Source of the DNA: a virus
Taxonomy: Duplodnaviria > Caudoviricetes
Length of the DNA: 62,242 nucleotides
Reading direction: 5' to 3' (one strand)
IMG/VR virus record: IMGVR_UViG_3300009183_000009
Location: 1 to 62,242 of that record
In this document: positions 3,948 to 27,400 of the stretch, piece after piece
Position numbering within the stretch: the first letter of the stretch is position 1
How the letters are laid out: the number at the start of each line of letters is the position of its first letter
The notes under the pieces: model-generated
What the model was told of the DNA's origin: nothing
Seen by the model: only the letters and a program-made list of their open reading frames with translations
Database searches by the model: none
Program-made: the position numbers and the translations under genes

Positions 3948-4870
3948 ATTACACCGAACTCAGTAACGCTATTCAAGCGTATACAGAGAACACGGAGACT
4001 AGCTTCGTGGCGGAGATTCCTGTCTTTGTGGAGCAGGCTGAGCAACGTATTTATAACTCGGTGCAGTTCCCCTCAATTCGTAAGAACGTGACAAGCACTG
4101 TTGCGATAAACACAAAGTATTTGGACTGCCCTCTTGACTTCTTAGCTGTGTATTCTATGGCGGTCATTGATAGTAACGGTAACTACGAATACTTGCTTAA
4201 CAAGGACGTTAACTTTATCCGTCAGGCATACCCAAACCCTACAACAGATGTAGGCATTCCCAAGTACTACGCACTGTTTGGCCCAACGGTATTAAATACT
4301 GTAATTTACGACGAACTCTCGTTCATATTAGGGCCAACAGCCGATGCGAGTTACGGCGTTGAGTTGCACTATTACTACTACCCCGAGTCAATTGTGCAAA
4401 GCCCTGTTGCTGTTTTGGGCGCAATTACTGGTGGCAGCGCATATACGGCGGGTACTTATTTTAATGTGCCCCTGACTGGCAGTACAGGTAGCGGGGCGTT
4501 AGCAACGGTTACTGTTTCTGGTGGCGCGGTAACAGCCGTGACTATTACGAATGGCGGCTTGAACTATACGGCTGGCGGGTCTTTATCTGCCGCCGCCACA
4601 AATATTGGCGGAACAGGTTCTGGTTTTTCTGTGCTAATTAGCACTGTAACTAATTCAGACGGTAGATCATGGCTGGGGGACAACTTTGACACGGTGCTGT
4701 TGTATGCATCTTTGGTTGAGGCTTACACCTATATGAAGGGTGAAACCGACATGATGGCTTTATATAACGGAAAATACACGGAAGCTCTTGCGTTAGCCAA
4801 GCGTTTGGGTGATGGCATGGAGCGTCAAGACGCCTATCGTTCTGGTCAATTTAGACAGGCGGTGACCTGA
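3944..4870 (+). CDS. Second adaptor / head-closure-like protein with Gly/Thr-rich insertion
   Basis: FV.QAE.RIY...G.PKYYA...LLYASLVEAYTYMKG pattern; insert at about aa 150-235. Confidence 0.65.
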   Translation: MNYTELSNAIQAYTENTETSFVAEIPVFVEQAEQRIYNSVQFPSIRKNVTSTVAINTKYLDCPLDFLAVYSMAVIDSNGNYEYLLNKDVNFIRQAYPNPTTDVGIPKYYALFGPTVLNTVIYDELSFILGPTADASYGVELHYYYYPESIVQSPVAVLGAITGGSAYTAGTYFNVPLTGSTGSGALATVTVSGGAVTAVTITNGGLNYTAGGSLSAAATNIGGTGSGFSVLISTVTNSDGRSWLGDNFDTVLLYASLVEAYTYMKGETDMMALYNGKYTEALALAKRLGDGMERQDAYRSGQFRQAVT

Positions 4871-9761: not shown

Positions 9762-9770
9762 GGAAACATC

Positions 9771-10274
9771 ATGCAAATCAGAATCCAGTCAACAGGCGCA
9801 GTTATGTACGAGGCAGAGTTTCGTGCATACACAAAAGCCAATGGTGGCCCATCATGGGAAACAACAACAGATGAAGTCCTAGAAGCCTTGGGTGCTGACG
9901 TTGTCTTTGAAGGCCCACAAGCATCAGGCGGCACTGTCTACCAGTATTCACAAGCCTCTGGCGTAGAGGAGATCGGTGGCAAGTGGTATACCAAACATGT
10001 GCTTGGCCCTGTCTTCACAGACCGTGCGGCTACAGAAACCGAGCCAGCAATGACTGCCGCTGAACAAGAAGCTGCTTATAAGACCGCTAAAGACGTAGAG
10101 CAAGCCAAATCTATACGCAACTCACGTACAGTAATGCTCAATGACAGCGACTGGACACAACTTGCCGACAGCACTGTTGATAAAGAGGCGTGGGCAACAT
10201 ACCGTCAAGCACTGCGGGACATCACGGCACAGGCTGGTTTTCCTTGGACAATTACTTGGCCTGACGCACCATAG
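9771..10274 (+). CDS. Tail fibre assembly chaperone
   Basis: C-terminal R..L..SDWTQL.D...W..YRQALRDI..Q.GFP..I.WP signature. Confidence 0.85.
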   Translation: MQIRIQSTGAVMYEAEFRAYTKANGGPSWETTTDEVLEALGADVVFEGPQASGGTVYQYSQASGVEEIGGKWYTKHVLGPVFTDRAATETEPAMTAAEQEAAYKTAKDVEQAKSIRNSRTVMLNDSDWTQLADSTVDKEAWATYRQALRDITAQAGFPWTITWPDAP

Positions 10275-12557: not shown

Positions 12558-14669
12558 ATGCCACTTTCCAAGATCCTATTTAAGCCGGGTGTCAACAAAG
12601 AAAACACTCGCTACACCACCGAAGGGGGTTGGTACGAAGCCGACAAGGTACGCTTTCGCCAAGGCAATCCTGAAGTTGTTGGCGGGTGGGAGCCTTACTC
12701 TGCGGCTACGTACCAAGGCGTATGTCGTTCATTGTGGAATTGGGTAACGCTTGGTGGCAATAATCTACTTGGCGTTGGCACAAACCTCAAGTTCTATATC
12801 AATCAAGGCGGTCTCTACTACGACATCACGCCAATCCGTGCGTCTTCTACGATCAACAACAACCCGTTTGTAGCTACAAATGGCTCCACCACAATCACAG
12901 TAACAGATACAAATCATGGTGCGCTGACAGGAGATTTTGTTACGTTTAGTGGCGCTGTTAGCCTTGGCGGGAATATTACGGCTACGGTATTAAATGCGCA
13001 GTATCAAGTCACAGTCCTCACCGCAAACACATACACATTTACAGCAACAGCTACGGCAAACGCAACGGATGCTTCTGGTTCTCCCGGCGGCGGTGCTTCT
13101 GTTGTAGCTGCATATCAAATTGGTGTTGGCCCTGCAATTCCTACTCCCCTTGTAGGTTGGGGCGCTGGTAGTTGGGGTGAATCAGGTACAACATGGGGCA
13201 ATGGCGGGACATCTACGTCAGCACTTCGTTTGTGGAACCAAATCAACTACGGACAAGACTTGGTCTACGGCCCCCGCACCGGCGGTATTTACTACTGGAG
13301 TGCGACTAACACTGTAAGCACTCGGGGCGTATTACTTAATACGCTTGGCGGCACAGTATCCTTTACAAACGCTTCTCCTACGGCTGTTACTTCAACTGTT
13401 CTCTATACCGAAGGCGCTGCGCTTCAATTTTCTGGCGGCTCACTGCCAACTGGCGTGTCTGCGGCAACTACGTACTATGTATTCCAAGTTAGTGGACTTA
13501 CATTTAACTTAGTAGATGCCTCAGGTAACGTAATCAATACATCGAGTTCAGGCACAGGCACAGTATCCTTAATCGTGGATGTGCCTACAGTTCAGAACAA
13601 CATCACGTCGTCTGACACTTCGCGTTTTATAATTGCGTTTGGTTGTAACGATTACGGCTCAATCGTGCTAGACCCCATGTTAATTCGCTGGTCAGCGCAA
13701 GACGATATCTATAACTGGACACCGTCAATTACAAACCAAGCGGGTAGCATCCGTATATCTCATGGTTCAGAAATTGTAGGTATTGTACAAACTCGACAAG
13801 AAGTTGTAGTATTTACCGACTCGGCTGTATATTCACTTCAGTATCTTGGCCCTCCTTACGTTTGGGTTCCGCAGCTTCTTGGTGACAACATCTCTATCAT
13901 GAGCCCTAATGCGGCTGTGATTGCTTCGGGCGTTGTGTACTGGATGGGGGTAGATAAGTTTTACCAATACGATGGTCGGGTAAATACTTTATCTTGCGAT
14001 CTACGTCGTCATGTGTTTGGTGACCTTAACCAAGAGCAAGCACTACAAGTGTTTGCGGGAACAAGCGAAGGTTTCAATGAGGTCTGGTGGTTCTACTGTT
14101 CGGCCAGTAGTACTGCGGTGGACAAATACGTTATCTATAACTATGAAGAAAAAATCTGGTACTACGGCACTATGTCACGCACAGCTTGGCTTGACTCTGG
14201 GTTACAAGATGTTCCTATCGCGGCAAATTACACCACGACTACGCTCACGGGTAACTTGATTAACCATGAGACAGGTTTAAATGACAACACAACCGGCACT
14301 GCTGTTGCAATTGATGCTTACATTGGTTCGTCTGAGTTTGATATTGGTGACGGGCACAACTTTGGTTTTGTGTGGCGCGTCTTACCTGATTTAAGTTTTG
14401 ATAATTCCACTAACAGTCCTGCCGCCGTTGCCCCACAGGTAACTATGACGCTGTACGGTCTGACTAATTCAGGCTCTGGGGTTACAAACAGTGCTAACGG
14501 CACAGTCGTTAAGGGTAGTACGTATGTTATTACCGAAGAGTTTACGGGGCAAATCTATACACGTATGCGCGGTCGCCAGATGATATTTAAGATTGGCTCC
14601 AACCAAATTAATACAACATGGCAACTGGGCGCACCACGAATTGACATCAGACCTGATGGCAGACGCTAA
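12558..14669 (+). CDS. Tail nozzle / packaged-DNA stabilisation protein
   Basis: PG...E.T.Y..EG.W...DKVRFR start, IRWS.Q, EVWWFY, and final R.D.RPDGRR; has inserted beta domains. Confidence 0.7.
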   Translation: MPLSKILFKPGVNKENTRYTTEGGWYEADKVRFRQGNPEVVGGWEPYSAATYQGVCRSLWNWVTLGGNNLLGVGTNLKFYINQGGLYYDITPIRASSTINNNPFVATNGSTTITVTDTNHGALTGDFVTFSGAVSLGGNITATVLNAQYQVTVLTANTYTFTATATANATDASGSPGGGASVVAAYQIGVGPAIPTPLVGWGAGSWGESGTTWGNGGTSTSALRLWNQINYGQDLVYGPRTGGIYYWSATNTVSTRGVLLNTLGGTVSFTNASPTAVTSTVLYTEGAALQFSGGSLPTGVSAATTYYVFQVSGLTFNLVDASGNVINTSSSGTGTVSLIVDVPTVQNNITSSDTSRFIIAFGCNDYGSIVLDPMLIRWSAQDDIYNWTPSITNQAGSIRISHGSEIVGIVQTRQEVVVFTDSAVYSLQYLGPPYVWVPQLLGDNISIMSPNAAVIASGVVYWMGVDKFYQYDGRVNTLSCDLRRHVFGDLNQEQALQVFAGTSEGFNEVWWFYCSASSTAVDKYVIYNYEEKIWYYGTMSRTAWLDSGLQDVPIAANYTTTTLTGNLINHETGLNDNTTGTAVAIDAYIGSSEFDIGDGHNFGFVWRVLPDLSFDNSTNSPAAVAPQVTMTLYGLTNSGSGVTNSANGTVVKGSTYVITEEFTGQIYTRMRGRQMIFKIGSNQINTTWQLGAPRIDIRPDGRR

Positions 14670-15316
14670 TGGCTTCTAAAAACCGAATCCTTGCTCCAGC
14701 TTCACCCAGCTTACCATTGGCTACGGATCAGTACGAACGGCGTTATCAAGACCAATTTACCAATATTTTGCGTTTGTACTTCAACCAACTACAGAACTCT
14801 TTAGCTGAACTATTTAGTGACGCTGGCGGTAAATACATTGCACTTCCTTACGGGGCGTTTTCAGACTTTACGTCCCAAACAACTACAGTCAATACAGCTA
14901 CGTTGATGGCCCTAAACACCACGGATTTTTCTAACACGGTGTCGTTGCGAACAGGGTCAAAGATAACGGTGGAAAACGCCGGTATTTACAACTTGCAATT
15001 TAGCGCGCAGTTACAGAATTTAGATAATGCACCGCAAGACGTATTCATTTGGCTTAAACAAAATGGCACAGACATAGTTGGTTCTACAGGAAAAGTTGGT
15101 ATGCCCGCTAGAAAAAGTGCGGGCGTTCCGTTTCACGACATCAAAGGCTGGAACTACTTTTTGTCCATGAACGCAAACGACTACGTTCAGATTTACTGGT
15201 CTACAACTAATGCGTCTGTAACCATAGAAACTTATGCGGCTTCAGGCACGCCAACCAAACCGTCAACCGCCTCTGTGGTAGCCACACTTTCATTTGTGTC
15301 TGCGCTCTCAACATGA
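14669..15316 (+). CDS. Tail-associated protein with C-terminal jelly-roll (C1q/TNF-like) domain
   Basis: LRLYFNQL helix followed by G.YNLQFS.Q...W...NG...DYVQIYW. Confidence 0.6.
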   Translation: MASKNRILAPASPSLPLATDQYERRYQDQFTNILRLYFNQLQNSLAELFSDAGGKYIALPYGAFSDFTSQTTTVNTATLMALNTTDFSNTVSLRTGSKITVENAGIYNLQFSAQLQNLDNAPQDVFIWLKQNGTDIVGSTGKVGMPARKSAGVPFHDIKGWNYFLSMNANDYVQIYWSTTNASVTIETYAASGTPTKPSTASVVATLSFVSALST

Positions 15317-15349
15317 TACGATCCAACAACCCATATTTCAGAGGCAAAT

Positions 15350-17443
15350 ATGAATGTATTTAAACGGGCGCTAACTCCCGAAACCTACACAAATGCACTA
15401 GCAGACCCCGGCAGCGCGATCAAGAATGTCGTGTCCGACCCTGCCTTTGGCTTAGTGGCTGGCACTATGTTGGGTATGCCCGCGTTTGGTGGGTTTTCGG
15501 CTGGCACAGCTGCGCTGATGGCTGGCGGTATCTCTGCTTTGGCTACGGGAAGTTTGCAAAAAGGTTTTATGACAGGTCTGAGTGCCTATGGCGGCGCTGG
15601 ATTGGGCGCATCTTTAGCCGGTGCTGGTCAGTCTGCTATTGAGCAAGGAGCATTAAACCAGTCTGCGGCAGAAAGCGCACGCTTGGGCATGTCGCAGGCA
15701 CCTTTTGCAGAAGAAGCGGTTAGGGCTGGCGCAGAAGCATCTGCGTTAGACAAACTCAGTGCCGGTTTTGGCGCAGTTACAAGTTCTCCAGATGCGGCAT
15801 TACAGTTTGCTAAGGATAACTACGGCAAAGCTCTCATGGCCGCAGGCCCCATACTTGCCGATCAGATGGTAGCGACAAAAACACCGTTGCCAACAGCAGG
15901 TTCTCTTTCGGGCCCAAGTTACATCCGCCCATATGCCATGACCCGTAAAGTCCGCCAACCAGAGCCGGATATTGGTTCGCGGCAGCAAAACTGGTTTGAC
16001 ACAACATGGGAGAGAGGCGAGCCCTATAAAGCAGCGAACGGCGGTATTGTTGCGCTTGCCGGTGGCGGTATGACCTCCCAAGGTGCCTATGATTTTTTGA
16101 TGGGCAAGAAGAGTGATACAGGCTCTGCCCCACTGGTTAACACCGTTACCCAAGCGCCCACGTACGAAGGTCACTACGAATATGATGCGGCAACAGGCAC
16201 AAGCCGGTTTGTGCCAGCGCGTATGGACATGACTACAGCGATGAAACCTGTTATTTCAACTACTACGCCTACTACGCCTACAACGGACACTGCTGGGATT
16301 ACTACACTTGTTCCGGGATATGGTAATCCCAATGCCGCAGCAGCCCAAGCTGCTTCTTTTGCTGCCCTGACTCCTGCGCAACAGGCGACTCATCAAGCGC
16401 AATTGGCGGCAATTAACGAGGGTTTGACTCCACTGGCAATTAAAATATTTAAACAAATAAAACAACAAATACTTAACAAACAACCAAACGAAGCTCTTGC
16501 TGATGTTGTGAATATGGATACCCTGTCTCCTGATGCTCAAGCCCAAGCGGACGGTTTTGCCAATGCCGCCGCCGCTAACGCCGCCGCTAATTCTGCTCAA
16601 GGTGTTTCAGCCGCAAATGCAGCCGCTGCAATTGGAGCGGCAAACGCCGCCGGTAATGCTGGGGCCACCGGTACAAGTTCAGGCCCCGGTGGTATGGCGG
16701 GAGCAACAGGTCAAGCAGGTGTTGCTGCATCCGCAGCCGCTGGAAATGCTGGTGTGGCAGGTGCGGCAGGCCCCGGAAGTTCTGGCGGTGTTGGTAGCGG
16801 CGCTGGCGTCGGCGCTGGCAATGGTAGCGGCGGCTCATCTGCCGGTGGTAGCTCTGCTGGATCAGCCTACTCAGATGTCCGGATGAAAGACAATATCAAG
16901 CCAATCGGCAACGCACTCAGCAAAGTCAAGAAGTTAGACGGCATTACTTATGACATGGCTGGCAAGCGCGGCGCAGGCTTAGCGGCTCAACAAGTTGAGA
17001 AAGTATTACCCGAAGTTGTCCACAAAGATGCTAAAGGTATGCGTAAGCTGGACTACGGCAATACTGTGGGCTTGCTGGTTGAGGCTGTAAAAGAGCTTGA
17101 CGCCAAGAAAAAAGCTGGTGGTGGCATATTGCAAGGTTACGCCACTGGTGGGTTATCTGACCTCGGCTCTTACTCAGACGGCGGCAGATTACTGCGCGGC
17201 CCCGGTGACGGCGTGTCCGACTCTATCCCTGCAATGATTGGCAAAAATCAGCCTGCACGTTTAGCCGACGGTGAGTTTGTAGTACCCGCACGTATTGTTT
17301 CTGAAATTGGTAACGGATCCACCGAAGCTGGCGCACGCAAGCTATACGCAATGATGGACAGAATTCAGGCAGCACGTAGGAAAACCGTTGGCAAAGGCAA
17401 GGTAGCCGCAAACACTAAAACAGATAAGTATCTTCCCGCTTAA
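15350..17443 (+). CDS. Internal virion (ejection) protein with Gly-zipper N-terminus, peptidase S74 domain and GPGDG.SDSIPA domain
   Basis: YSDVRMKDNI...G..AQ.VE.VLPE.V...LDY.....LLVEAVKEL at 16871-17100; GPGDGVSDSIPA...LADGEFVVPA near the C-terminus. Confidence 0.8.
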   Translation: MNVFKRALTPETYTNALADPGSAIKNVVSDPAFGLVAGTMLGMPAFGGFSAGTAALMAGGISALATGSLQKGFMTGLSAYGGAGLGASLAGAGQSAIEQGALNQSAAESARLGMSQAPFAEEAVRAGAEASALDKLSAGFGAVTSSPDAALQFAKDNYGKALMAAGPILADQMVATKTPLPTAGSLSGPSYIRPYAMTRKVRQPEPDIGSRQQNWFDTTWERGEPYKAANGGIVALAGGGMTSQGAYDFLMGKKSDTGSAPLVNTVTQAPTYEGHYEYDAATGTSRFVPARMDMTTAMKPVISTTTPTTPTTDTAGITTLVPGYGNPNAAAAQAASFAALTPAQQATHQAQLAAINEGLTPLAIKIFKQIKQQILNKQPNEALADVVNMDTLSPDAQAQADGFANAAAANAAANSAQGVSAANAAAAIGAANAAGNAGATGTSSGPGGMAGATGQAGVAASAAAGNAGVAGAAGPGSSGGVGSGAGVGAGNGSGGSSAGGSSAGSAYSDVRMKDNIKPIGNALSKVKKLDGITYDMAGKRGAGLAAQQVEKVLPEVVHKDAKGMRKLDYGNTVGLLVEAVKELDAKKKAGGGILQGYATGGLSDLGSYSDGGRLLRGPGDGVSDSIPAMIGKNQPARLADGEFVVPARIVSEIGNGSTEAGARKLYAMMDRIQAARRKTVGKGKVAANTKTDKYLPA

Positions 17444-17452
17444 GGAACAGTC

Positions 17453-19033
17453 ATGGCAGATCCAACACAAATCACCCAGTATCAAACCGGCTTTGCGCCA
17501 GAGATTGCCCCTTACGCCCAGACCATGCTGGGCATGACCGGCGGCGCTCTCTATAACTACGAATATCAAGACGCAAACGGCAACATTGTCCCACAGGGAA
17601 CCCCCGGCAGTACGATGGTTTATCGGAACGCAAGCGGTGCAATTGTCCCCGCTGGAACTGCTGGCGCTCAGCCAACCCCTTTAGGCCTTAAACCCTATGA
17701 AAAATATCCGGGCGAAAGAACCGCACTATTTAACGATTTACAAACTAACAAAGCAGGAACTGGCGCGTTTGATCAAGCTGCCAAACTTGGGTACAACCCA
17801 TACTCCACAGGAGCCGCCACAGGTTTACAAGGGCTGGCCCAATTAGCGGGGGCAACTAAATATACCCCGTCAAGTTTTGATTACACAAAAGTTGCAGCAC
17901 CAACTTTACAAAACTATCAAATGACCGGGCCTGCAAATGTTGCAGCGCAAAACGTCAATGCGGGAACAATTAACGCGGCTCAAATGGGGGGCGCTGATAA
18001 AGTAGCAACTAAAAGTTTTACAGATACAGGAACTGCTGGTGCATACATGTCACCCTACATGCAAAAAGTGGTGGACATTCAACAACGTGAAGCCCAACGT
18101 CAGGCGGATATAGCAGGAACACAACGTGGCGCTCAAGCTGCAAAAACAGGCGCTTTTGGCGGGTCTCGTCAGGCTATTATGGATGCGGAAGCAGCGCGTA
18201 ATTTGGCAACTCAAAAAGGTGATATTCAAGCTCAAGGTTTAAACGCAGCATTTCAGCAAGCTCAACAGCAATTTAATGCAGAACAAGGTTATGGGCTGCA
18301 AGGGCAAATTGCAAATCAACAAGCAGGACTCACAGTTGGCGGACAAAACCTAAGCGCGGAGCAACAAGCAAGAGTACAAAATGTTGCCAACCAACTACAA
18401 GCCAGTGGGATGAACGCTCAACAAGCTTTGCAAGCAGCCTTGGCAAATCAGCAAATGGGCTACAACGTAGGTTCTCAGAACTTACAAGCTAACCTTGGCG
18501 TACAGCAACTTGGCTCAGGTCAAAACATGCAAGCTCAATTGGCAAATCAAAATGCCAATCAACAGATGCAACAGTTGGCTGAGCAATCTAAACAGTTTGG
18601 CGCTGGGCTTGGTCTTCAAGGTCTGCAAGCGGGTATGCAGGGATATCAAAACCTTGGCAATATTGGGCAAAACTTATATGGCCAAAACATTAGCAACATA
18701 AACACACAAGCACAGCTTGGCGGACAGCAACAGCAGCAAGCACAGAATATATTAGATCAGAAATACCAAGACTTCATGGCGGAAAAACAAGAGCCGTTTC
18801 AACAGTTGTCCTACATGTCTAACATGTTGCGTGGTGTGCCATTAAGCCAAGGCGCACAGACGGTTTACCAAGCCCCCCCAAGCGCATTTTCTCAGGTAGC
18901 AGGCGCGGGTTTGACTCTTGCGGGTATGAGTAATTTGTTTGGCGGAAAAACCAATGCCAAGGGCGGCGTCATTAAAGAGAAAAAGGGCAGGCCTGCTGGA
19001 TTGTCTGCGCTCGTACTTTCAAAGATGGGATAA
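17453..19033 (+). CDS. Gln-rich DNA transfer / ejection protein
   Basis: YMSPY.Q.V and GAFGGSR motifs, long Q/A/G coiled region, C-terminal Gly-rich helix and NAKGG. Confidence 0.75.
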   Translation: MADPTQITQYQTGFAPEIAPYAQTMLGMTGGALYNYEYQDANGNIVPQGTPGSTMVYRNASGAIVPAGTAGAQPTPLGLKPYEKYPGERTALFNDLQTNKAGTGAFDQAAKLGYNPYSTGAATGLQGLAQLAGATKYTPSSFDYTKVAAPTLQNYQMTGPANVAAQNVNAGTINAAQMGGADKVATKSFTDTGTAGAYMSPYMQKVVDIQQREAQRQADIAGTQRGAQAAKTGAFGGSRQAIMDAEAARNLATQKGDIQAQGLNAAFQQAQQQFNAEQGYGLQGQIANQQAGLTVGGQNLSAEQQARVQNVANQLQASGMNAQQALQAALANQQMGYNVGSQNLQANLGVQQLGSGQNMQAQLANQNANQQMQQLAEQSKQFGAGLGLQGLQAGMQGYQNLGNIGQNLYGQNISNINTQAQLGGQQQQQAQNILDQKYQDFMAEKQEPFQQLSYMSNMLRGVPLSQGAQTVYQAPPSAFSQVAGAGLTLAGMSNLFGGKTNAKGGVIKEKKGRPAGLSALVLSKMG

Positions 19034-19042
19034 GAGGCGGCT

Positions 19043-21418
19043 ATGTACACATCCACACAACGGGGAACATCAGGCATTAGCTCTGGCAGTATCGACGCTT
19101 TGCGCGTCCAGTTAATGAAGATGAATTCACAGCAATTACAAGCGTTTGCAACTGCCAACCAAGACGACGCCATTAAGCTTAGCCTTGCCGCCGAAGCGGA
19201 TAAGTACAAGAAGCAACACGGCCAAGAAGCTATGGCAATGATGGCAGGCCAACAGCAAAAGCCTCCTATTTCTCAGCAAATCCTGCAAAGCATTGGCCAG
19301 CCTCCACAGCAACCTCAACAACAACCTCAACAGCCCATGCCTCCTCAAATGGCGCAAGCTCCCCAAGGTATGCCATCCCAACAAATGGCTCAGGCCCCAC
19401 AAGAAATGCCACCACAAGGTATGGCGGATGGCGGTTATGTGTTACCCGAAAATCAAGGGATTGCTACGCTTCCCGTAGGCGGTATGGACTTTGCCGAAGG
19501 CGGCATCGTTGGGTATGCTGGTGGTGGAGAAGTGCCGGGATATGCTGAAGGCGTATTTACTGGGGTGAAGAAAAAATATAAAGAGTTAAGAGGGTATGAG
19601 TTTGACGGTGGCCCGGAAATGTTTGATAAGGCGCTTGATGCTGAAGGTGTTACAGATATCAAAAAACGCGCATTTTTAAAAGCAATTCACGACAAAGAAT
19701 CAAACCAAGCGCGTATAGCCCCAACGCGAGAAGGATCAGATGCAGCTGGCCCCATGCAGGTCAGGCCCGGCGCATGGACAGATGTTTCTAAAAAAGGTGA
19801 AGAATTAAAAGATCGCAACAACCCTTATGACAATATGCGTGCAGGTATTAGATACGCCTCTATGGGTTGGGAAAAAGCCAAGGGCGATCCTGCGCTGGCA
19901 AGCACTTTTTACTATGGCGGCAAGGGCGGTTTTGACAAAGCCAAAGAGAATAAAGGCGTTGCGGCTGATGAAGATAAAGGTCAGACAACTTTGCAGTATG
20001 GAAAAGATGTTGCTTCAAGGTATTTTAAAATGTTGCCTATCACAGCAACAGCCGCACCCGCAGTTGCTAACTCAGCCATAGATCAAATCCCCGGTCAGTC
20101 TGCAAAGGCACCTCCTTCCAAGGCCGCGCTACAAGATCAAGGTCTAGCTGCATTAGCAGGCGGTGACCCCATGACGGGCTTTACTATGCCTCAAGATGTG
20201 TTTAGCCCAAGCCCAGAGGAAGAGCGCAAGTACGCTGCTGCAAAGGGGCAAGCTAAAAAAGTTGAAGATGTTGTTAGCCAAATCCCCGGCCAGTCCGTTA
20301 AAGCGCCAGCGTTTAAAGACACCAACACTTACTTTGGCGGTGTTGCTGACGAAATGGGCATATCCCCAGAAGTTCAACGCAATGTTTCCAACACAATAAA
20401 TGCAACAAGCGGGTTTACTTCGCCTCTTGGCGGCGTTAACCGTGCAGCTTCAACTGTTTCCAAAGGACTTGAGCCTACGGCAGAGATGATTCAAAAAGCT
20501 AAGCAAGCAAAATTGTTGACCACTATCAACAACGCCGAACAAGTTGTTGAAGCACCTCGCCTACTGCCCCCTGCCAAAGCTGGACTTGAAGCCCTTGATG
20601 AGGCATCTGCGGCTACCCGCGCTGCTGCTGAGAATGCACGCCGTATGCGTCAGCTTGAACAAGACCGCAAAGCCGCAATGGGCGCAGAACAATCCGTAGA
20701 TGCAGCAACAAAATCTGCGGCAATTGCAGACAAGTTAGCCAAAGAACAAGCAGCGCTTGTTGATGCTGCCCGTTTAGGTCAAGCCAAAATGACAGGCGCC
20801 GCTCAAGGTTTAGCCATGACCCAAGCGGCAGACAAAGCCGGATTGATACCTCAAGGTGGTGGCGTATCTGATTTAATTCCAGAAACTGCACCGGCTATGG
20901 CTCCCCCAATTCCATCAGGAATGCTTGCCCCTGTTGCTGGAGAAGAACCCAAAGGTTTGGACGTCAAAGACTTGCCCAAAGACCCCGTAACTGGAGGCAC
21001 TGACTGGAACAAATTAGCTACCTACTTTGGCTTGAACTTAATGGCAGGTAAGTCGCCCAACGCCCTTACTAATGTTGGTGAAGCAGGCATTGGCGCATTG
21101 AACATGCAACAAGCTGAAGCAAGAGCCAACAGCGAAAAGGCTTACCGAGAAGCTATGGCCGCACACGCCCAGATGCCTGCGGCTGAAGTTCAACTGACTG
21201 AGAAATACGCTAACGATCCTAAGTTCCGTAAAGCGTTTGATATGTTGGCTAATGCAAAACGTGAACCAATGACTCGTGAAAGCTTGTTTAAAGAATACAT
21301 CAAGTCTCCAGTTGCAAGCATCAAACCATTTTCTGAATATGTGTCAGAATACGAAAAAGAATTTGGGTCGCTGGGTGGGGGTGCTCCTAAGGGAACCATT
21401 GTCACCCGCGAAAAATAA
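19043..21418 (+). CDS. Ejection protein with lytic transglycosylase (SLT-like) domain
   Basis: AI..KES...A.GPMQV.P...NP.DN.RAG.RY...A...Y.GG at about 19670-19920. Confidence 0.8.
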   Translation: MYTSTQRGTSGISSGSIDALRVQLMKMNSQQLQAFATANQDDAIKLSLAAEADKYKKQHGQEAMAMMAGQQQKPPISQQILQSIGQPPQQPQQQPQQPMPPQMAQAPQGMPSQQMAQAPQEMPPQGMADGGYVLPENQGIATLPVGGMDFAEGGIVGYAGGGEVPGYAEGVFTGVKKKYKELRGYEFDGGPEMFDKALDAEGVTDIKKRAFLKAIHDKESNQARIAPTREGSDAAGPMQVRPGAWTDVSKKGEELKDRNNPYDNMRAGIRYASMGWEKAKGDPALASTFYYGGKGGFDKAKENKGVAADEDKGQTTLQYGKDVASRYFKMLPITATAAPAVANSAIDQIPGQSAKAPPSKAALQDQGLAALAGGDPMTGFTMPQDVFSPSPEEERKYAAAKGQAKKVEDVVSQIPGQSVKAPAFKDTNTYFGGVADEMGISPEVQRNVSNTINATSGFTSPLGGVNRAASTVSKGLEPTAEMIQKAKQAKLLTTINNAEQVVEAPRLLPPAKAGLEALDEASAATRAAAENARRMRQLEQDRKAAMGAEQSVDAATKSAAIADKLAKEQAALVDAARLGQAKMTGAAQGLAMTQAADKAGLIPQGGGVSDLIPETAPAMAPPIPSGMLAPVAGEEPKGLDVKDLPKDPVTGGTDWNKLATYFGLNLMAGKSPNALTNVGEAGIGALNMQQAEARANSEKAYREAMAAHAQMPAAEVQLTEKYANDPKFRKAFDMLANAKREPMTRESLFKEYIKSPVASIKPFSEYVSEYEKEFGSLGGGAPKGTIVTREK

Positions 21419-21440: not shown

Positions 21441-24400
21441 ATGCCGCAGTACAAAGTTGAGATTCCGGGTCAAGGCACATTTAATGTTGACTCCCCGGAA
21501 GAGCTAACCGATGCAGAGGTTTATGCAGCGGTTCGACAACAACTGCGCTCTGAAAAGCCTCAAGAACCCGAAGCACAGCCTGAGTCGGGTTTTTTTCCTG
21601 CACTTAAATCAAGCGCCTCCGCACTTAAGAGCGACATAGCCTCCCTTGCAGGCAGGTCAGGGTTGATGGATTTGGCCAAAGCCGAGCAAATCCGCAAAGA
21701 GTCAGAAGAGTACCAGCGGCAAACTTTTGCCCCTACCCAAGAAGGCTGGACAGAAGCACCCTTTACCAAGTTTAAAGAGTTGGCTGGCGGTTCTTTGCCG
21801 TACATGGCCGCGCCTATAGCGGCGGGTATGTTGGCTCCTGAGGGGGCTATTGGTCTTGGTGTAGCAGGTCTGACTTCTGCCACACAGTTTGCAGGTTCAG
21901 GTTTGTCGCGTCAAATGGACGAAGGCAAGTCTCTTGCTGAAACAAATCTTGGTGCCGCCGTTGCCGCGTCCGTACCACAGGCCGCGCTAGACATATTGTC
22001 TTTACGCATGATTCCCGGTATCCGTGGCATCTTTGGTGCTGTTGGTAAGGAGATGACCGAGGTTGAAGCGCAGGCAATTGCCAAGCAGGGATTGGCTAAA
22101 ACCTTAGGTGATTACGCACTTACAACAGGTAAAACTGCCGGTATGGAGGGTCTGACCGAGGCAGGTCAACAAGTATTTGAGCGTTTGCAAGCAGGGTTAA
22201 ACCTTACTGACCAGCAAGCGCAGGATGAGTATTTTCAGAATTTCCTTGGTGGTGCAGTCCTTGGTGGTGCATTGGCTCCTATTGGACGGTATTCTGAACG
22301 CGGCAAAGAACAACGGCAAGCAAAAGCGTTACTTCAACAACCTGAAGCAGTTGCTCCCCCTGAACCAAGTGCGCCTGTTGCTCCAACCACTGCCGAAGAA
22401 GCAATTCCTGAACCTACTTTACGGCAACCTGTTTCTGAGAAAGCTGCCAAAGAACCAGTGCTCCCCGGAGCCGCCGCATCGTTTAAAGAACGCTTGGAAC
22501 AGCGCAAACAGCTTGAAAAGGCTGTTGCCCCCTATGAAAAAGAGCAGGCCCGTGTAGCCGCCTTGACCCCATTTGACTACTTGATGGAGCAGACAAGTGA
22601 GGTTCCCAAACCCACTAAAGTTAAGGAAGGTGAGGGACTTGTTGCCGCCGACATGACCGGCCTGCCTTACGCCATGAAGTTTGCCAAGCAGCAGATTGAA
22701 GCTGCCAAGTACAACGAGATTGAGCCAGACGTTTCCAAATACATTGAGTATCTGCTTACAAAACCTGACTATGCCAATATCTTGGCTACGCACGCTAAGC
22801 AATTGCCGGGGTTGAACGCCAAACAAAGCAAGTCCGTGTTGGCCGCTTTGCCATCCGCGCTGAAGTTACGGGCCGAGGCAGAAGCTAAGAAAACCGCAGA
22901 AGCAGAGAAACCTGCCGAGACTCCTGATAAAGATTTAAGCCACCTTGAGCCCTTGTTTAATAAGGCTTTTGAGGGTAAAGAACCCATCATTGAGGTTAAT
23001 GAAAACCTCATGCCTACCCGCAACGCCAAAATTGTGCGGGAGAATGTCAATACTTTACTGCAACAAGCTGATGATGTAGAAGCAACATACAGGGCTGCGC
23101 GGCGTGCTGGTAATAGGGCGGCGGCTGTCTCTGCTTTTGCGCAAAAACAAGCCATTACCAAGAAGCTCAATGCACTGACTGAGGAGACCCCTGCCGGTGC
23201 GTTGACTGAGGGAAAGCAGAAACCTCCGGGAGAAATTGATACCCGCGCTTCTTACGCTAGAGAAGTTATACAGCTACGCCGCCAACAGCAAAAGGCGCTG
23301 GAGGACATTGAGATTACGCTTAATACGCTCCGTGCTGGCGATGTGATGGGTAGAGAAGTTGAACCCGTCCGTGACCCTGATACTGGCAAGATCACCATGA
23401 AACCGGTTGAGATTGGCAAAGGTGCGGCAGGTGCATCCGGCGCTGTGCTGGCGCAACGTGCTGAGTCTTTGCGTGGGGACTACATCAACGCCTTGCTGAA
23501 GGAAGCGGCAACACATCGCCGTGCGCTGGGCAAAGCCCCCATAACCGTGGACGAAGCCACCAAAGCCGCCTCACGGGTGTATGACGTTGTAAATGAGTGG
23601 ATTGAGCGCTCCAAAGCCAAGCCGTTGCCAAGGTCTGTCGAGAAGCCTGAGTTTGTAGAAAAGATTGTTCAGCCCGCCCAGAAACGTGCAGGCAAGATCA
23701 TCCGAGGTGCAGTTACTGAACGTGCGTACAGCGATAAGCCGCCAGCCAAAGCTCCTGAGGGATATGACGAAACTGACGGCAAGTGGGAGAAGTTTCCCAC
23801 AGGCAAGCCAAACCCACCTTTTGTTTGGGAATTCATAGACAGCCGCCCAGTAGAGGGCCGGTTTAACGAAATTGCAAGGCTAAGCGACAAGGAAGTTAAG
23901 CACTTCAAGGCTCAGATCGACAATGTAGTCAAGGACTTAGAAGAGATTCCGTCTGAAGTTTCACGTGAAACACCTCTGTTGAAGCAACAGTTTGCTGGCG
24001 CTGAAGCCAAAAAGACAGCCGAAGCCCGAGGTGAAACCGCCGCCACAGCCAGCGGAGAACTGCGTCGCCTACGTGAATACGTGGGCAACATGATTGATAA
24101 AGCGCTGACACGTAACCCACCGGAAGAAATACAGAACTCGTTAGAACGCGCCAAAGAAATCATTGAAGACGGCAAAGCCAGCAAGACTTTGTTGGACGCA
24201 GCCCAGAATCAAGCCGCACGCATCCTGCGCGGTGAAGACCTTGGCAAACAGGTGTACACACGTCGTGAACTTGCTTCGAGCAAACGTGTTGTTGACAATG
24301 TTCCCGGCAGAGAAGCTGAGACACGCATTGGAGAACGTCGCACATACAGACAGGTAGGTTACGAAGCCGCGCTTGCCCCCGAAGGTAGCGCATTACGTGA

Positions 24401-27400
24401 GCTTCAAGATGCCATAAAGCTGTATGAACGTACAGCCCAAGAGGGTGAGATTGCTGGTGAAGGTGCGGCTGGTCAAGGTCAGTTGTTTCCTGAGACACGC
24501 AAAGACATTGGCTACATCCGCGCTAATCCTGCCAACTTTGCCAAGTCACCACAGATTAAACCTGTATGGGAAACGTTGGAGCAGTCCCGCAAGCTCAAGG
24601 CAGAGTTAGATCAGAAGACCAAAATAGATAGAGCCAGAGCCGTTGTAGCCGTCAAGGAAGTTGAAAGCCTTACAGCACTGGTTGACAACATTAAAGCAAA
24701 CACCAAGTTCTTTTGGGCAGACACTACTAAATGGTCAGACCAAGCGTTGGCTAAAGCGTTTGTTCCGTATCCTGATATTGGTAATACAGCCGCAGAACAA
24801 GCGCTTGTTGACATTTACCTTAAAAGCCCTAAGAGCCTTTCCGCACAAGATAAGGTAACCGTTGACGCGCTTATAAAAACTTTTACCGCAAAAGCGTTGC
24901 CTAAATATCAAGAAAAACTAAAACAAGCAGTAAGTATGCTTGCCCAAGGTGAACGGCTTAACGACTTTAACAACAAGTTGCTTGGCTTTATGCAAGACTC
25001 TAACAAGAGTGTTCGTGAAGCGGCAGAAGCTAAGAAGCAAGCGCTTGCCCCTTTGCAAGAAGCATTGGATAGGATTAAGGTTGCGCTCAAAGCGTCGCCT
25101 GTTCTGACAGAAGCTCAGAAAGAGGCAATTGGTTTAGAAGGCAAGATCAGCGACCAACGTGCCAAGTACAGCCAATCTGTTGAAGCAGCTATTAAGAAGA
25201 CCAACGACCAAATGGTCGTGGCAAGAGATGCCATTCTCAACCCACAAATTGAGCCAGTGTTGCGTTCACTCAAAGCCGCAGGTACGCGCCTTGAGAAAGT
25301 GTTGGATGAAATCACTAACGCAGAAGAAGCGTTTGATGCAATGCTAGAGACCGAGGGCGGCGAAGAGCGTCTATTGAGTTCTCCGTACCAAGTTGAAAGC
25401 TTGCGCAAGAATAAAGAAACTGCTGAGAAACTTATTGACCAGATTCAAGAGCAGTCAAAGATATACGAAGACTTGCTCAAGCAAAAGAACGAGGACTTTA
25501 CACGTAGCTCAATAGCTGTGCAAGCGATGCTGGACAAGAACGTCAAGTACGAGCGTGAGTATTTGGAAATACTAGAAGGCCAGCTTGCGTTTGTGCGCGG
25601 TGAAAACATTGACGCAATGCAGGAGAAACCCGGCGAGCGCCGGATGTTTGAAAAAGTAACGGCTACGCAGAAGTATCCGTTTGCTGCTCGCCGCGCTGAA
25701 GAAGCAATTAAAGTTCAACGTGCTGCGCTGGAAGCTGCAAAGAAACGCGCTGACGCGTTTAAGAAAGAAACTGACGATACCAAAGACAAGATTGAGAAGA
25801 CTCAGAAACAAGCAGCTACAGATATTGCAGAGAAGTTGCCCGGCATTCAGATGTCGAAAGGCGAGGTCAGCAAACTTAAAACTGCGGCTGAGAAAGAAGC
25901 TGAGGCAAAGAACAAGGCCGAGCTTGACCTTACCGCTGAGACCATTGATGCTGGCAGACGCGCTCAAATAAAGCAGACCAAGCTGGACGAGTTGAACACC
26001 GAGCTTGAGAATTTGTACCTTGACTTTGCTGGGCGTGCTGGCCCAACAGACCCTGCGCTGTTGCAAGAGTTTGCGCGTAACAAGAAGAAGTCACCCGCTA
26101 CGCGTGCGTATGCACAAGCTAAGCTTGACCTATACAACCAGATTGAAATCCTTGAAGCGCAAGAAGATTCACTTAAAACAGGTAAGCCTTTTAAAAAGCC
26201 CCGCACAGCTACTACGCCGAGCACTGCCGCGTTGGCGGGAGCTAAAGAGTTCCGTTCAGGTTCTGATGCTCAGATAGAGCAACGCCAGAAACGCATTGAT
26301 GCGGCAATTGACAAAGAGTACGCACGCTATGAACGGCTTGAAGCAAAAGCCACGATGCAGGCAGACAAAGAAGCACGTAAGTATGCTGAGAATTTGTTTG
26401 AGAGCGACGACTACATTGAGCCGTCTAGACAGAGCTACGAGTTCTCACGCGGTGTCCCATCGACAGGCTTGACCAAAGCTGAGCTTGAGGCTGAGCTTAC
26501 TGCGGGTATGGGTGAGCCTGTTACTGGTCGAGGTAGAGAAGCGCAGGTTAAGCGTGCATTGAGTGTGTATGAGAATCTTGACGAGTACTTAAGCCAGTTT
26601 AAAGATGCGACACGTCAAAAACTAGAAAGCCAGATTCCATCAGACGCCAAAGGTTTTGTGCAGGACGGTAAGGCTGTATTGTTTGCCAACAACATAGCCA
26701 AGGGCGAAGGTTTAGGCGTATTGCTCCACGAAGTCGGCGTGCATATAGGCTTTCGCAATTTCTTTAACCAAGCTCAGTACAACGCGTTGGTTAAGACAGT
26801 CAAATCATGGGCTGCGCGTGAAGACGGCTCTATGGAAGCGCGTGTTGGTAAAGCCGCAATGGACAGAGTTAAAGCCGCTGAGACTCCTGCAAATCAAATT
26901 GATGACGAGCTTTTAGCGTATGCCGTTGAAGAAGCGATGAAAGCCGGGGTAGACCCAGAAGGCGTGAAGAAAGGTTCTGCTGTGCAGAACTGGTTGCGCA
27001 TGGTGGTCGACGCGTTTAGAAAAGCGCTTGAGAAGTTTGGCATTAACGCCAAGAACTTGACTGCTGGTGACTTGGTTAACTTTGCTTACGGTGCGGCACA
27101 GCTTGAACTTAAAGGAACTTGGCACGGCACTGGCGTGGAGTTTAAAGAGTTTGACCACGCTTATATGAGTTCTGGTGAAGGACACCAAGCATTTGGCTAT
27201 GGCACATATCGTGCACAGCAAAAAGGTATTGGCCAAAACTATCAACGTATTGCGGCAGAAAACCAAACTGAGAAATGGGCGGAACGTCCTGATGTAAAAG
27301 AATGGTTTGAATCACAGAAACCAAAATTTACAGGCACGTTGCCTGAAGGAACGCCTGATTGGTTTTTAGAAAGTGCGTTAGACACAACAGCAGGTGTTAC

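What the first reader, a model, noticed from the sequence alone, without database searches (positions are those of the whole stretch)
16540..17443. Peptidase S74 auto-cleaving chaperone domain inside an ejection-type protein
Seen: after a long Gly/Ala/Ser linker comes YSDVRMKDNI...LLVEAVKEL (Ser codon at 16871), then three GG motifs and a GPGDGVSDSIPA domain. Known: S74 domains normally end trimeric tail spikes and cut themselves off through a Ser-Lys dyad. Here the domain is internal and the N-terminus is Gly-zipper-like, not a beta-helix. Inference: self-processing releases the membrane-active N-terminal part from a C-terminal packaging module.
Basis: partly seen in the sequence, partly recalled or inferred. 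Interest (0 to 1): 0.7.

Follow-up and report, generated by a model that had tools for sequence, protein, structure and literature searches.

The report
Self-cleaving fibre domain inside ejection-type protein
A phage protein that sits where short-tailed phages encode their DNA-ejection proteins carries, in its middle, an intact self-cutting folding domain normally found only at the very end of tail fibres, so it probably cuts itself in two.

Summary
ORF 15350-17443 (+, 697 aa) has a complete Peptidase_S74 intramolecular-chaperone domain at residues 506-589 (Pfam 49.5 bits against a cut-off of 22). Ser508 and Lys513 lie in the catalytic columns, and 108 unrelated residues follow the domain.

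The window is a ~62 kb uncultured freshwater podovirus-like phage. The gene follows a homologue of the Pa223 tail hub and a needle-sized gene. It precedes a 526-aa protein, an SLT-bearing 791-aa protein and a 3144-aa polyvalent-type protein. By synteny it occupies the outer-membrane-channel slot (T7 gp14 / Pa223 gp56).

The S74 unit is an optional cassette inserted between a Gly-rich linker and an extremely conserved C-terminal module. That module ends 79 of 79 related viral-contig genes. Only the closest kin carry S74 (3 of 65 distinct relatives), and its presence is patchy on the N-domain tree. It is still under strong purifying selection (dN/dS 0-0.10).

One relative has an intein at the same junction, and another has a CFI-box domain there.

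Self-cleavage, trimerisation, virion location and the "packaging" role of the C-module are inferred, not shown. The complex predictor was unavailable.

This scan has noted S74 domains in ejection-type proteins on other DNA before. I rate this a new variant of a known kind, of moderate interest.

The parts
15350..17443 (+). Gene X: 697-aa virion (ejection-type) protein; ATG at 15350 preceded by AGAGG at 15340-15344; stop at 17441-17443
   Evidence: orthologs
15437..15640 (+). Residues 30-97: hydrophobic Gly/Ala-rich 'glycine-zipper' stretch (G59, G76, Y80, G81 invariant across 58 family members)
15350..16099 (+). Residues 1-250: N-terminal domain shared with the wider family (23-36% identity to distant members); predicted helical over 31-176; ends with the NGGIVALAGGG...AYDFLMG motif
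16550..16864 (+). Residues 401-505: Ala/Gly/Ser/Asn low-complexity linker; a recombination-prone junction
16865..17116 (+). Residues 506-589: Peptidase_S74 intramolecular-chaperone (ICA/CIMCD) domain
16871..16873 (+). Ser508 codon: predicted nucleophile; predicted scissile bond Tyr507|Ser508
16886..16888 (+). Lys513 codon: predicted general base of the Ser-Lys dyad
17141..17440 (+). Residues 598-697: conserved C-terminal module (GGLSDLGSYSDGGRLLRGPGDGVSDSIPA...ADGEFVVPARIVSE...YAMMDRIQ...KYLPA); no Pfam, PHROG or NCBIfam family
12558..14669 (+). 703-aa tail hub/nozzle homologue (context)
14669..15316 (+). 215-aa protein in the position and size range of a tail needle (context; inference only)
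17453..19033 (+). 526-aa Gln-rich protein in the position and size of the periplasmic-tunnel ejection protein (context)
19043..21418 (+). 791-aa protein with an SLT lytic transglycosylase domain; T7 gp16-like position (context)
21441..30875 (+). 3144-aa protein with LPD38 (polyvalent-protein domain) (context)

Best explanation
Gene X encodes an internal-virion (ejection-type) protein of a short-tailed phage and occupies the outer-membrane-channel slot of the ejection operon. Its family has a conserved helical, Gly-rich hydrophobic N-domain, a variable and often low-complexity middle, and a highly constrained ~100-residue C-terminal module.

In this phage and its closest kin, a tail-fibre-type S74 intramolecular-chaperone cassette has been recombined into the Gly-rich linker just upstream of the C-module. 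The last ~20 linker residues came with it.

The domain is intact and selectively maintained. The proposed mechanism has four steps.
1. Three chains associate through their S74 domains.
2. Ser508, activated by Lys513, attacks the Tyr507-Ser508 bond.
3. The precursor splits into an N-fragment (residues 1-507, about 49 kDa by my estimate, left trimerised at its C-terminal end) and a C-fragment (residues 508-697, about 20 kDa, S74 plus C-module).
4. In functional terms this resembles MYRF, where an internal ICA domain frees an N-terminal trimer from a C-terminal anchor.

Shown here: the domain identity, intact dyad, internal position, cassette nature, purifying selection and synteny. Inferred: trimerisation, cleavage, presence inside the capsid, and any role of the C-module.
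For: - Domain identity: Pfam 49.5 bits against a cut-off of 22, over the full profile. PHROG fibre families extend the match to residue 588.
- Conserved columns: against 160 representative S74 domains, X keeps S508 (99% of the domains have Ser), D509 (99%), K513 (100%), G531, G543, A546, Q547, P554 and Y569.
- Solved relatives: a profile of the domain finds 6f45, 8jov, the MYRF ICA 7dc3, and the phi29 gp12 chaperone fragment 3gud, which begins at the aligned SDERHK.
- Selection: dN/dS of the S74 segment is 0.06, 0.00 and 0.10 in three pairwise comparisons, with dS 0.16-0.25. The N-domain gives 0.14-0.23 and the linker 0.19-0.40.
- Internal position is unusual: among the 150 best of 44,503 S74 hits in 1.84 billion representatives, 140 have 25 or fewer residues after the domain. 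Five have more than 50, and two of those five are this protein's own clusters.
- Cassette: orthologs P0010, P0011, P0012 and P0015 lack exactly this segment. On the N-domain tree of 16 orthologs, S74 presence needs at least 4 changes.
- Context: the 703-aa upstream protein matches the Pa223 tail hub gp59 (9nwi_Y, E 7.8e-13). The Pa223 gene order is hub gp59, needle gp58, gp57, gp56 (putative outer-membrane channel), gp55, gp54 (505-aa tunnel protein), gp53 (gp16-like). The window order is 703 aa, 215 aa, X, 526 aa, then 791 aa with SLT.
- Fold: the N-domain is predicted helical over residues 31-176 at pLDDT 64-76.
- Separate fibre: a tail fibre plus assembly chaperone is encoded at 7734-10274.
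Against: - No sequence or profile similarity links X to any characterised ejection protein. hhalign against Pa223 gp56 gives probability 1.5%, aligning only a Gly-zipper. tblastn of the N-part against 50,697 phage records finds nothing. Fold searches gave nothing above background.
- Hydropathy of the 'membrane' stretch is modest, 1.0-1.3.
- The segment upstream of Ser508 is low-complexity, not a recognisable trimeric stalk. The AF2 monomer model of the S74 plus C-module region was poor, mean pLDDT 47.
- Relatives without S74 keep the N-part and C-module joined, so separation is not needed for the family's basic function.
- The variable middles carry domains typical of extracellular proteins: DUF4214 in 7 of 65, plus RTX repeats and cEGF in single cases. 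The gene is a recombination hot spot, a pattern also seen in receptor-binding proteins.
- No virion proteomics exist for this phage group.
Confidence: 0.55

Rival explanations
1. X is an external, trimeric fibre-like or needle-associated host-contact protein rather than an internal ejection protein. On this reading the S74 domain does its ordinary job of folding a trimeric fibre. The conserved C-module would be an attachment or assembly handle that is shed with the chaperone.
For: - S74 is otherwise a fibre or spike module: 140 of the 150 nearest representatives are terminal, and many are short fibre proteins.
- The N-part and middle of X are swapped even between phages whose hub is 97% identical (L045, L058, L068), as happens with receptor-binding proteins.
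- Middle domains in relatives include DUF4214 (7 of 65), RTX repeats and cEGF.
- CFI-box-CTERM, whose name indicates a C-terminal domain, occurs at the same junction in P0013.
Against: - The conserved N-domain is predicted helical with a hydrophobic Gly-rich stretch and shows no fibre repeats.
- Minimal family members contain little beyond the N-terminal hydrophobic part and the C-module: 256-aa L043, 294-aa Pag-Yong1 UMO76003 and 379-aa L025.
- S74-less orthologs have only a Gly/Ala/Ser linker where a shaft would be.
- The phage has its own fibre plus chaperone upstream.
- The gene sits after the hub and needle positions and before the SLT protein.
Confidence: 0.15
2. The S74 cassette is a recombinational passenger. 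It folds, and may trimerise the protein, but it does not cleave here, or cleavage has no functional consequence. It is retained because it is harmless or helps folding of the Gly-rich precursor.
For: - Presence is patchy among near-identical N-domains, needing at least 4 changes on the tree.
- Only 3 of 65 distinct family members from viral contigs carry it.
- S74-less, intein-bearing and CFI-box-bearing versions coexist.
- There is no recognisable trimeric stalk upstream.
Against: - The dyad and all conserved columns are intact.
- dN/dS of 0-0.10 at dS 0.16-0.25 is lower than in the flanking N-domain and linker. A neutral passenger would not be expected to show this.
- The internal ICA domain of MYRF does cleave (abstracts only, PMC3742443 and PMC6972908).
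Confidence: 0.2
3. X is a tape-measure-like protein, as GenBank annotators labelled its relatives in phage DSL-LC04 and Caulobacter phage GB2A.
For: - The annotations appear.
- Length varies widely in the family, 191-1217 aa.
- Composition is Gly/Ala-rich.
Against: - The gene set is that of a short-tailed phage: a Pa223/SU10-type hub and adaptors, with no tail-tube or sheath hits among the proteins scanned.
- No Pfam, PHROG or NCBIfam tape-measure family matches X.
Confidence: 0.05

Closest known systems
C-terminal intramolecular chaperone / Peptidase_S74 domains of phage tail fibres and spikes (K1F endosialidase, T5 pb1, phi29 gp12; these names are recalled, while 3gud, 6f45 and 8jov were matched)
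   Same: The same domain by HMM. The Ser-x4-Lys dyad is present. The full ~85-residue length is present, with all strongly conserved columns.
   Different: The domain is not at the C-terminus: 108 unrelated, highly conserved residues follow it. What lies upstream is a low-complexity linker on a helical, hydrophobic N-domain, not a beta-helical or coiled-coil fibre. The host gene sits in the ejection block rather than the fibre block.
MYRF (myelin regulatory factor) internal ICA domain (PMC3742443, PMC3742440, PMC8326128, PMC6972908; search listing and abstract starts only; PDB 7dc3 matched)
   Same: An internal S74/ICA domain whose trimerisation-dependent self-cleavage separates a functional N-terminal part from a C-terminal part.
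   Different: MYRF is eukaryotic. It has a beta-helical stalk upstream and a transmembrane anchor downstream. X is viral and has neither recognisable feature. The resemblance is one of mechanism, not orthology.
Outer-membrane-channel class of podovirus ejection proteins (T7 gp14, DEV gp73, Pa223 gp56; PMC8954989 passages; Pa223 preprint 10.1101/2025.06.11.659172 passages and section 10)
   Same: The gene position matches: after the tail hub and needle, before a ~500-aa tunnel-sized protein and a large protein with a peptidoglycan hydrolase. Both have a helical, Gly-rich hydrophobic segment.
   Different: No detectable sequence or profile similarity. X is two to three times longer. X carries a variable middle, a self-cleaving domain and a conserved C-module, none of which those proteins are described as having.
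Earlier notes of this scan on S74 domains in ejection-type proteins of other uncultured podoviruses (e1-3422298, e1-3503292, e1-3442746)
   Same: The same general idea: S74 domains inside or at the end of proteins in ejection-protein positions.
   Different: They concern different genomes and different proteins. None shares sequence with X by the word look-ups. One was later marked 'part of it fell'. They are unchecked leads, not evidence.

Membership tests
Peptidase_S74 / intramolecular chaperone auto-processing domain | Match to the family HMM above its curated threshold, over the whole model | tested here: met
   PF13884: 49.5 bits against 22, profile positions 1-58 of 58, residues 508-558. 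A local HMM built from 160 representative domains matches positions 6-91 of 93, E 1.1e-33.
Peptidase_S74 / intramolecular chaperone auto-processing domain | Catalytic Ser and a Lys five residues downstream, in the conserved columns | tested here: met
   S508 and K513 are present, and these columns hold Ser in 99% and Lys in 100% of 160 representative domains. They align to SDERHK at the start of the phi29 gp12 chaperone fragment 3gud and to the equivalent MYRF site in 7dc3.
Peptidase_S74 / intramolecular chaperone auto-processing domain | Location at the extreme C-terminus of the precursor | tested here: not met
   108 residues follow the domain. Of the 150 nearest representatives, 140 have 25 or fewer residues after it. 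This concerns the architecture, not the identity of the domain.
Peptidase_S74 / intramolecular chaperone auto-processing domain | A trimeric fibrous segment (triple beta-helix or coiled coil) immediately upstream | tested here: inconclusive
   The upstream 100 residues are Ala/Gly/Ser/Asn low complexity. The AF2 monomer model has pLDDT below 50 there.
Peptidase_S74 / intramolecular chaperone auto-processing domain | Trimerisation and autocatalytic cleavage | not testable with these tools
Cleavage needs a biochemical test.
Podovirus ejection protein, outer-membrane-channel class (T7 gp14-like) | Position in the gene order: after hub/nozzle (and needle), before the tunnel protein and the large gp16-like protein | tested here: met
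   The upstream 703-aa protein is a homologue of the Pa223 tail hub. The Pa223 gene order comes from its GenBank record and preprint. The downstream 791-aa protein has an SLT domain.
Podovirus ejection protein, outer-membrane-channel class (T7 gp14-like) | Several predicted transmembrane helices | tested here: inconclusive
   Helices are predicted over residues 31-176, but hydropathy peaks at only 1.0-1.3. No dedicated transmembrane predictor was available.
Podovirus ejection protein, outer-membrane-channel class (T7 gp14-like) | Sequence, profile or fold similarity to a characterised member | tested here: inconclusive
   hhalign against Pa223 gp56 gives probability 1.5%. tblastn finds no match in phages. 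Foldseek and VIA give nothing above background on a low-confidence model. The review PMC8954989 states that members of these classes are usually matched by size and synteny.
Podovirus ejection protein, outer-membrane-channel class (T7 gp14-like) | Packaged in the capsid and ejected into the host envelope | not testable with these tools
   The phage is uncultured, and I found no proteomics for cultured relatives.
Tail fibre / receptor-binding protein | Fibre-type repeats or a beta-rich shaft with a distal binding domain | tested here: not met
   PHROG fibre hits cover only the S74 region and the low-complexity linker, residues 294-588 at the widest. The N-domain is predicted helical. A separate fibre (DUF7483) and its chaperone lie at 7734-10274.

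The most novel reading that the evidence does not exclude
The junction behind the poly-Gly linker of this ejection-protein family may act as a landing pad for self-processing or 'terminal' modules. An S74 protease, an intein and CFI-box domains all occur there, and each begins with a Ser or Cys nucleophile directly after the glycine run. On this reading the ultra-conserved C-module is a transient assembly or loading handle. In the S74 clade the protein removes that handle itself once three chains have come together. This would be a viral counterpart of MYRF's release switch, pre-forming trimers of a channel-building ejection protein. The nonameric (3 x 3) channels reported for DEV, and predicted only at nine copies for Pa223, would fit such trimers.
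Probability: 0.2. Interest if true: 0.7.

Novelty: new variant of a known kind. Interest (0 to 1): 0.5.

Why it matters
S74 domains are treated as end-caps of trimeric fibres and spikes. Here one sits intact and under selection in the middle of a non-fibre protein in the ejection operon of a large group of uncultured freshwater phages.

If it cleaves, it adds autoproteolysis to the known ways ejection proteins mature. By recall, those ways include P22 gp7 leader removal by a host peptidase. It would also give a phage parallel to MYRF.

It also gives annotators a concrete warning: an S74 hit does not by itself make a gene a tail fibre.

The work defines a widespread, unnamed protein family. Its C-terminal 100 residues stay 80-100% identical where the neighbouring tail hub has dropped to 43-55%. 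That points to a strongly constrained, unknown interaction that can be studied in cultured relatives such as the Caulobacter Riverwalk-cluster phages and Planktothrix phage Pag-Yong1.

Tried and rejected
- **Homotrimer prediction.** Residues 430-697 in three copies with alignment A1 were handed to the complex predictor 8 times. It never ran, because the queue was full and then the tool was declared unavailable. There is no result in either direction.
- **AF2 monomer of residues 495-697**, with a 67-row alignment: mean pLDDT 47, too poor for a fold search.
- **AF2 of residues 1-260**, with 58 rows: mean pLDDT 55. Foldseek against PDB found no match at E <= 0.001. VIA wide search gave a best Z of 6.1 on 50-residue helical hairpins, which is within background for helical models.
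- **First composite alignment A2** misaligned the S74 representatives onto the C-module, so I discarded it and did not fold it.
- **Single-sequence PDB search** of residues 481-697 gave only a weak 6f45 hit, E 0.042. The profile search superseded it.
- **Lead that Pag-Yong1 UMO76004 carries S74**, as its GenBank label 'peptidase S74 domain-containing protein' says. My S74 HMM finds nothing in it even with filters off. It is the homologue of the 526-aa downstream protein. I dropped the lead.
- **Tail-fibre S74 domains of related loci as donors of the cassette.** They are only 34-36% identical to the domain in X. The nearest non-ortholog is P0122 at 74-79%. The donor remains unknown.
- **Family for the C-module.** Nothing real in Pfam, even at E <= 5 across 67 members; 12 of 67 gave a weak Myelin-PO_C hit, best E 0.0082, which I take as chance. 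Nothing in NCBIfam or PHROGs. The ESM Atlas shows only unnamed viral clusters, and the nearest named cluster (crAss_CARG1, 0.85) is below the level the tool treats as meaningful.
- **L076** comes from a contig of the same length (62,242) as the window, but blastn found no similarity. I treat this as coincidence.
- **Host.** The C-module occurs only on contigs of freshwater MAGs assigned to many phyla (18 loci). I read this as binning of phage contigs, not as host evidence.
- **Literature.** Three searches combined intramolecular chaperone, Peptidase_S74 or S74 with internal virion protein, ejection protein or ejectosome. None of the listed papers describes an S74 domain in an ejection protein. 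The library lacks most subscription journals.
Full report
**What the window is.** The 62,242-base window reads as a near-complete phage genome. It encodes a terminase large subunit (53330-54868), a portal (55144-57663), a major head protein (60525-61436) and two SU10-adaptor-like proteins (1651-2586, 3944-4870). It also encodes a tail fibre with DUF7483 (7734-9761), a fibre-assembly chaperone (9771-10274), a spanin and an endolysin. DNA polymerase, helicase and primase lie on the minus strand. No cultured phage is close. blastn of the terminase-portal region finds only a 94-base stretch in phage DSL-LC04. The passages I read in PMC10611076 describe DSL-LC04 as a metagenome-assembled lake phage with no known family.

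**The observation.** ORF 15350-17443 (+) encodes 697 residues. An AGAGG lies 5 bases upstream of the ATG.
- Pfam finds one family, Peptidase_S74, at residues 508-558 over the full 58-position model, 49.5 bits against a cut-off of 22.
- PHROG tail-fibre families carry the match on to residues 586-588.
- The Gly/Ala/Ser linker, the three GG motifs and the GPGDGVSDSIPA segment are all present.

**Is the domain intact?** I searched the domain alone (93 residues) against 1.84 billion representative proteins. That gave 44,503 hits at E <= 0.001. I aligned X to 160 domains taken from the 150 best proteins. X keeps every strongly conserved column: S508 (Ser in 99% of the domains), D509 (99%), K513 (100%), G531, G543, A546, Q547, P554, Y569, E578 and K581. 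A profile of the domain finds four solved relatives:
- the phage S16 fibre (6f45);
- another fibre (8jov);
- the MYRF ICA domain (7dc3);
- the phi29 gp12 chaperone fragment (3gud), whose first residues SDERHK align to SDVRMK of X.

I compared codons with three orthologous loci (L001, L002, L005). The S74 segment has dN/dS of 0.06, 0.00 and 0.10 at dS 0.16-0.25. The N-domain gives 0.14-0.23 and the linker 0.19-0.40. The domain is therefore selectively maintained, not decaying.

**Is an internal position unusual?** Among those 150 nearest proteins, 140 have at most 25 residues after the domain. Five have 26-50 and five have more than 50. Two of the last five are this protein's own clusters (P0008, P0123), and the other three carry two S74 copies. 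An S74 domain followed by an unrelated conserved module is therefore rare among its nearest relatives. Earlier notes of this scan report other internal S74 domains on other DNA.

**The family and the cassette.** A word-indexed search found 316 relatives, of which 120 were listed. A scan of viral contigs found 284, of which 79 loci were kept.
- In 79 of 79 loci the last ~100 residues of X (the C-module) form the very end of an ORF of 191-1217 residues.
- The gene order 703-aa protein, 215-aa protein, X, 526-aa protein is kept across these loci.
- The C-module is 80-100% identical throughout, even where the 703-aa neighbour is only 43-55% identical.
- Its dN/dS is 0-0.025 at dS 0.16-0.36, so the constraint acts on the protein.
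- Of 65 distinct X proteins from these loci, 53 contain a conserved head motif ending NPxTGLPEAGF in their first 120 residues. X and its closest kin have only a divergent remnant of it.
- The N-domain of X (residues ~30-250) aligns with the family at 23-36% identity.
- The middle is hypervariable. Pfam finds S74 in 3 of 65, DUF4214 in 7 of 65, and nothing in 55 of 65.
- Loci L045, L058 and L068 have a hub 97% identical to the window's but an X N-part with no detectable similarity. The gene is a recombination hot spot.

Among 16 close orthologs the S74 segment is a clean presence/absence unit.
- P0002-P0006, P0008 and P0009 have it.
- P0010, P0011, P0012 and P0015 join the Gly-rich linker directly to the C-module.
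- P0013 has a different insert.
- P0016-18 end in a different C-terminus and lack the C-module.

On a maximum-likelihood tree of the N-domain, S74 presence needs at least 4 changes, forced by well-supported branches. The cassette is therefore shuffled among co-circulating phages.

P0122 is a 348-residue protein with the same last 20 linker residues and a 74-79% identical S74 domain. It ends right after the domain. Tail-fibre genes of related loci do carry terminal S74 domains (L015, L021-23, L033, L050, L056). Those are only 34-36% identical to the one in X, so the donor is unknown.

**Other modules at the same junction.** P0048 has a 132-residue intein directly after a glycine run and directly before the C-module. 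It starts with Cys and ends in His-Asn followed by Ser. It matches PT-HINT at 25.5 bits, below the 27.7 cut-off, and intein_Cterm at 16.7 bits, above the 15.6 cut-off. It is the only such case among the 185 family proteins I scanned. P0013 has a CFI_box_CTERM domain at residues 496-567, 47.8 bits against a cut-off of 40. P0016-18, P0108 and P0109 have a Cys-Cys-Phe-Ile start after the glycine run. An intein would be expected to splice and rejoin the flanks. It therefore does not show that separating the two halves is selected.

**Context: ejection block or fibre?** The upstream 703-aa protein matches PDB 9nwi chain Y (E 7.8e-13, six copies in the entry). The Pa223 preprint identifies that chain as the hexameric tail hub gp59 (passages). 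In the GenBank record of Pa223 the order is gp60 fibre, gp59 hub, gp58, gp57, gp56, gp55, gp54, gp53. Section 10 of the preprint makes these assignments:
- gp58 is the trimeric needle.
- gp56 is the putative outer-membrane channel.
- gp54 (505 aa) is the periplasmic tunnel protein seen around the portal.
- gp53 is the gp16-like inner-membrane component.
- gp53, gp54 and gp56 were all found in virions by mass spectrometry.

The window's order is hub homologue (703 aa), a 215-aa protein, X, a 526-aa protein, then a 791-aa protein with an SLT domain and a 3144-aa protein with LPD38. X therefore occupies the outer-membrane-channel slot. The review PMC8954989 (passages) says that gp14-like proteins have several predicted transmembrane helices. 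It also says that ejection proteins are mostly matched by size and synteny.

X has no detectable similarity to Pa223 gp56. hhalign gives a probability of 1.5%, aligning only a glycine-zipper. The same holds for any phage record. Its N-domain is predicted helical over residues 31-176 at pLDDT 64-76. Hydropathy there is modest. The placement rests on synteny and composition, which is the normal basis for this class but is not proof.

**Mechanism proposed.**
- Shown: an intact, constrained S74 domain with its dyad, placed between a family-typical N-part and C-module.
- Inferred from the established behaviour of S74/ICA domains: three chains associate through the domain, Ser508 cleaves the Tyr507-Ser508 bond, and this gives an N-fragment (1-507) and a C-fragment (508-697). 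The phage examples are recalled. For MYRF I saw abstracts only.
- Relevant to the C-module: S74-less relatives keep both parts joined, and P0016-18 lack the C-module. The C-module therefore cannot be indispensable for the N-part's basic role. This is compatible with a transient or accessory function, but I have no evidence for what that function is.
- The window has no second copy of the C-module, so it is not a tag shared by several ejection proteins.

**Rivals.**
- An external fibre-like or needle-associated protein. The mosaicism and the extracellular-type middle domains in relatives favour this. The helical N-domain, the minimal 256-379-residue members and the gene position count against it.
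- A passenger cassette without functional cleavage. The patchy distribution favours this. The dN/dS values count against it.
- A tape measure, as in the GenBank labels. The short-tailed gene set counts against it.

**Novelty.** Three literature searches listed no paper describing an S74 domain in an ejection or internal virion protein, though the library is incomplete. MYRF is the known precedent for an internal ICA domain. This scan has flagged S74 domains in ejection-type proteins of other uncultured podoviruses (e1-3422298, e1-3503292, e1-3442746; one was later marked partly fallen). I did not test those notes and they do not count as support. I rate this as a new variant of a known kind, with moderate interest.

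**Limits.** No oligomer prediction could be run. Both monomer models were of low confidence. The phage and its host are uncultured. The supplements of the Pa223 preprint could not be read.

Noticed in passing
window 17141-17440 (residues 598-697 of X) and the ends of the X genes in L001-L079: An unnamed ~100-residue C-terminal module is 80-100% identical across 79 of 79 viral-contig loci, while the neighbouring tail hub is often only 43-55% identical. Its dN/dS is 0-0.025. It has no Pfam, PHROG or NCBIfam family, and the ESM Atlas shows an unnamed viral cluster of 1201 members. Weak relatives occur in cultured Caulobacter phages RW/GB2A, Planktothrix phage Pag-Yong1 and phage DSL-LC04.
   Followed up: partly
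P0048 residues 551-682 (a relative of X): A 132-residue mini-intein sits exactly at the junction where X has its S74 domain. It begins with Cys after a glycine run and ends in His-Asn followed by Ser, and it matches intein_Cterm above the cut-off. It is the only case among 185 family proteins scanned.
   Followed up: partly
P0013/L004 residues 496-567; P0016-18, P0108 and P0109 C-termini: A CFI_box_CTERM domain (NF041770, 47.8 bits against 40) lies internally, before the C-module, in P0013. A related-looking CCFI... module replaces the C-module in P0016-18, P0108 and P0109. I do not know what this domain does.
   Followed up: partly
First ~60 residues of the X homologues in 53 of 65 distinct loci (e.g. 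L076:6036-6215): A strongly conserved N-terminal head (MSLQLAA.HL...GRG.D..LVHM...E...L......GG.LTINP.TGLPEAGF) precedes the hydrophobic segment. The window's X has only a divergent remnant. An earlier scan note (e1-5947769) on a shared N-terminal tag of ejection proteins shares a few words with this family.
   Followed up: partly
window 16031-16108 (X residues 228-253) and 19415-19555 (791-aa protein residues ~125-171): Short 'hydrophobic-A-x-G-G-hydrophobic' boxes recur. Examples are ANGGIVALAGGG...AYDFLMG in X, three more before the C-module, and MADGGYV and FAEGGIVGYAGGG in the SLT protein. The box plus AY.YLMG pair is repeated in relatives such as P0035. Their meaning is unknown.
   Followed up: no
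window 21441-30875: A 3144-residue ORF with an LPD38 domain (112.7 bits) near its C-terminus. It is a polyvalent-type giant protein at the end of the ejection block, where N4-like phages place their virion RNA polymerase (the N4 comparison rests on abstracts).
   Followed up: no
window 1651-2586 and 3944-4870: Two separate genes both match the SU10 adaptor family (PF24175). The Pa223 preprint describes two coaxial adaptor rings built from one protein. Here two paralogues might build them.
   Followed up: no
L082 (Planktothrix phage Pag-Yong1) 9244-10194: The GenBank product 'peptidase S74 domain-containing protein' (UMO76004) is not supported by an S74 HMM run with filters off. The protein is the homologue of the window's 526-aa protein.
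   Followed up: yes
window 15350-17440 compared with L001, L002 and L005: Synonymous divergence changes sharply along the gene. Against L001, dS is 0.02 for residues 331-400 and 0.27 for residues 1-330. Against L002, dS is 0.03 in the linker and 0.18-0.27 on either side. This indicates recombination tracts inside the gene.
   Followed up: partly
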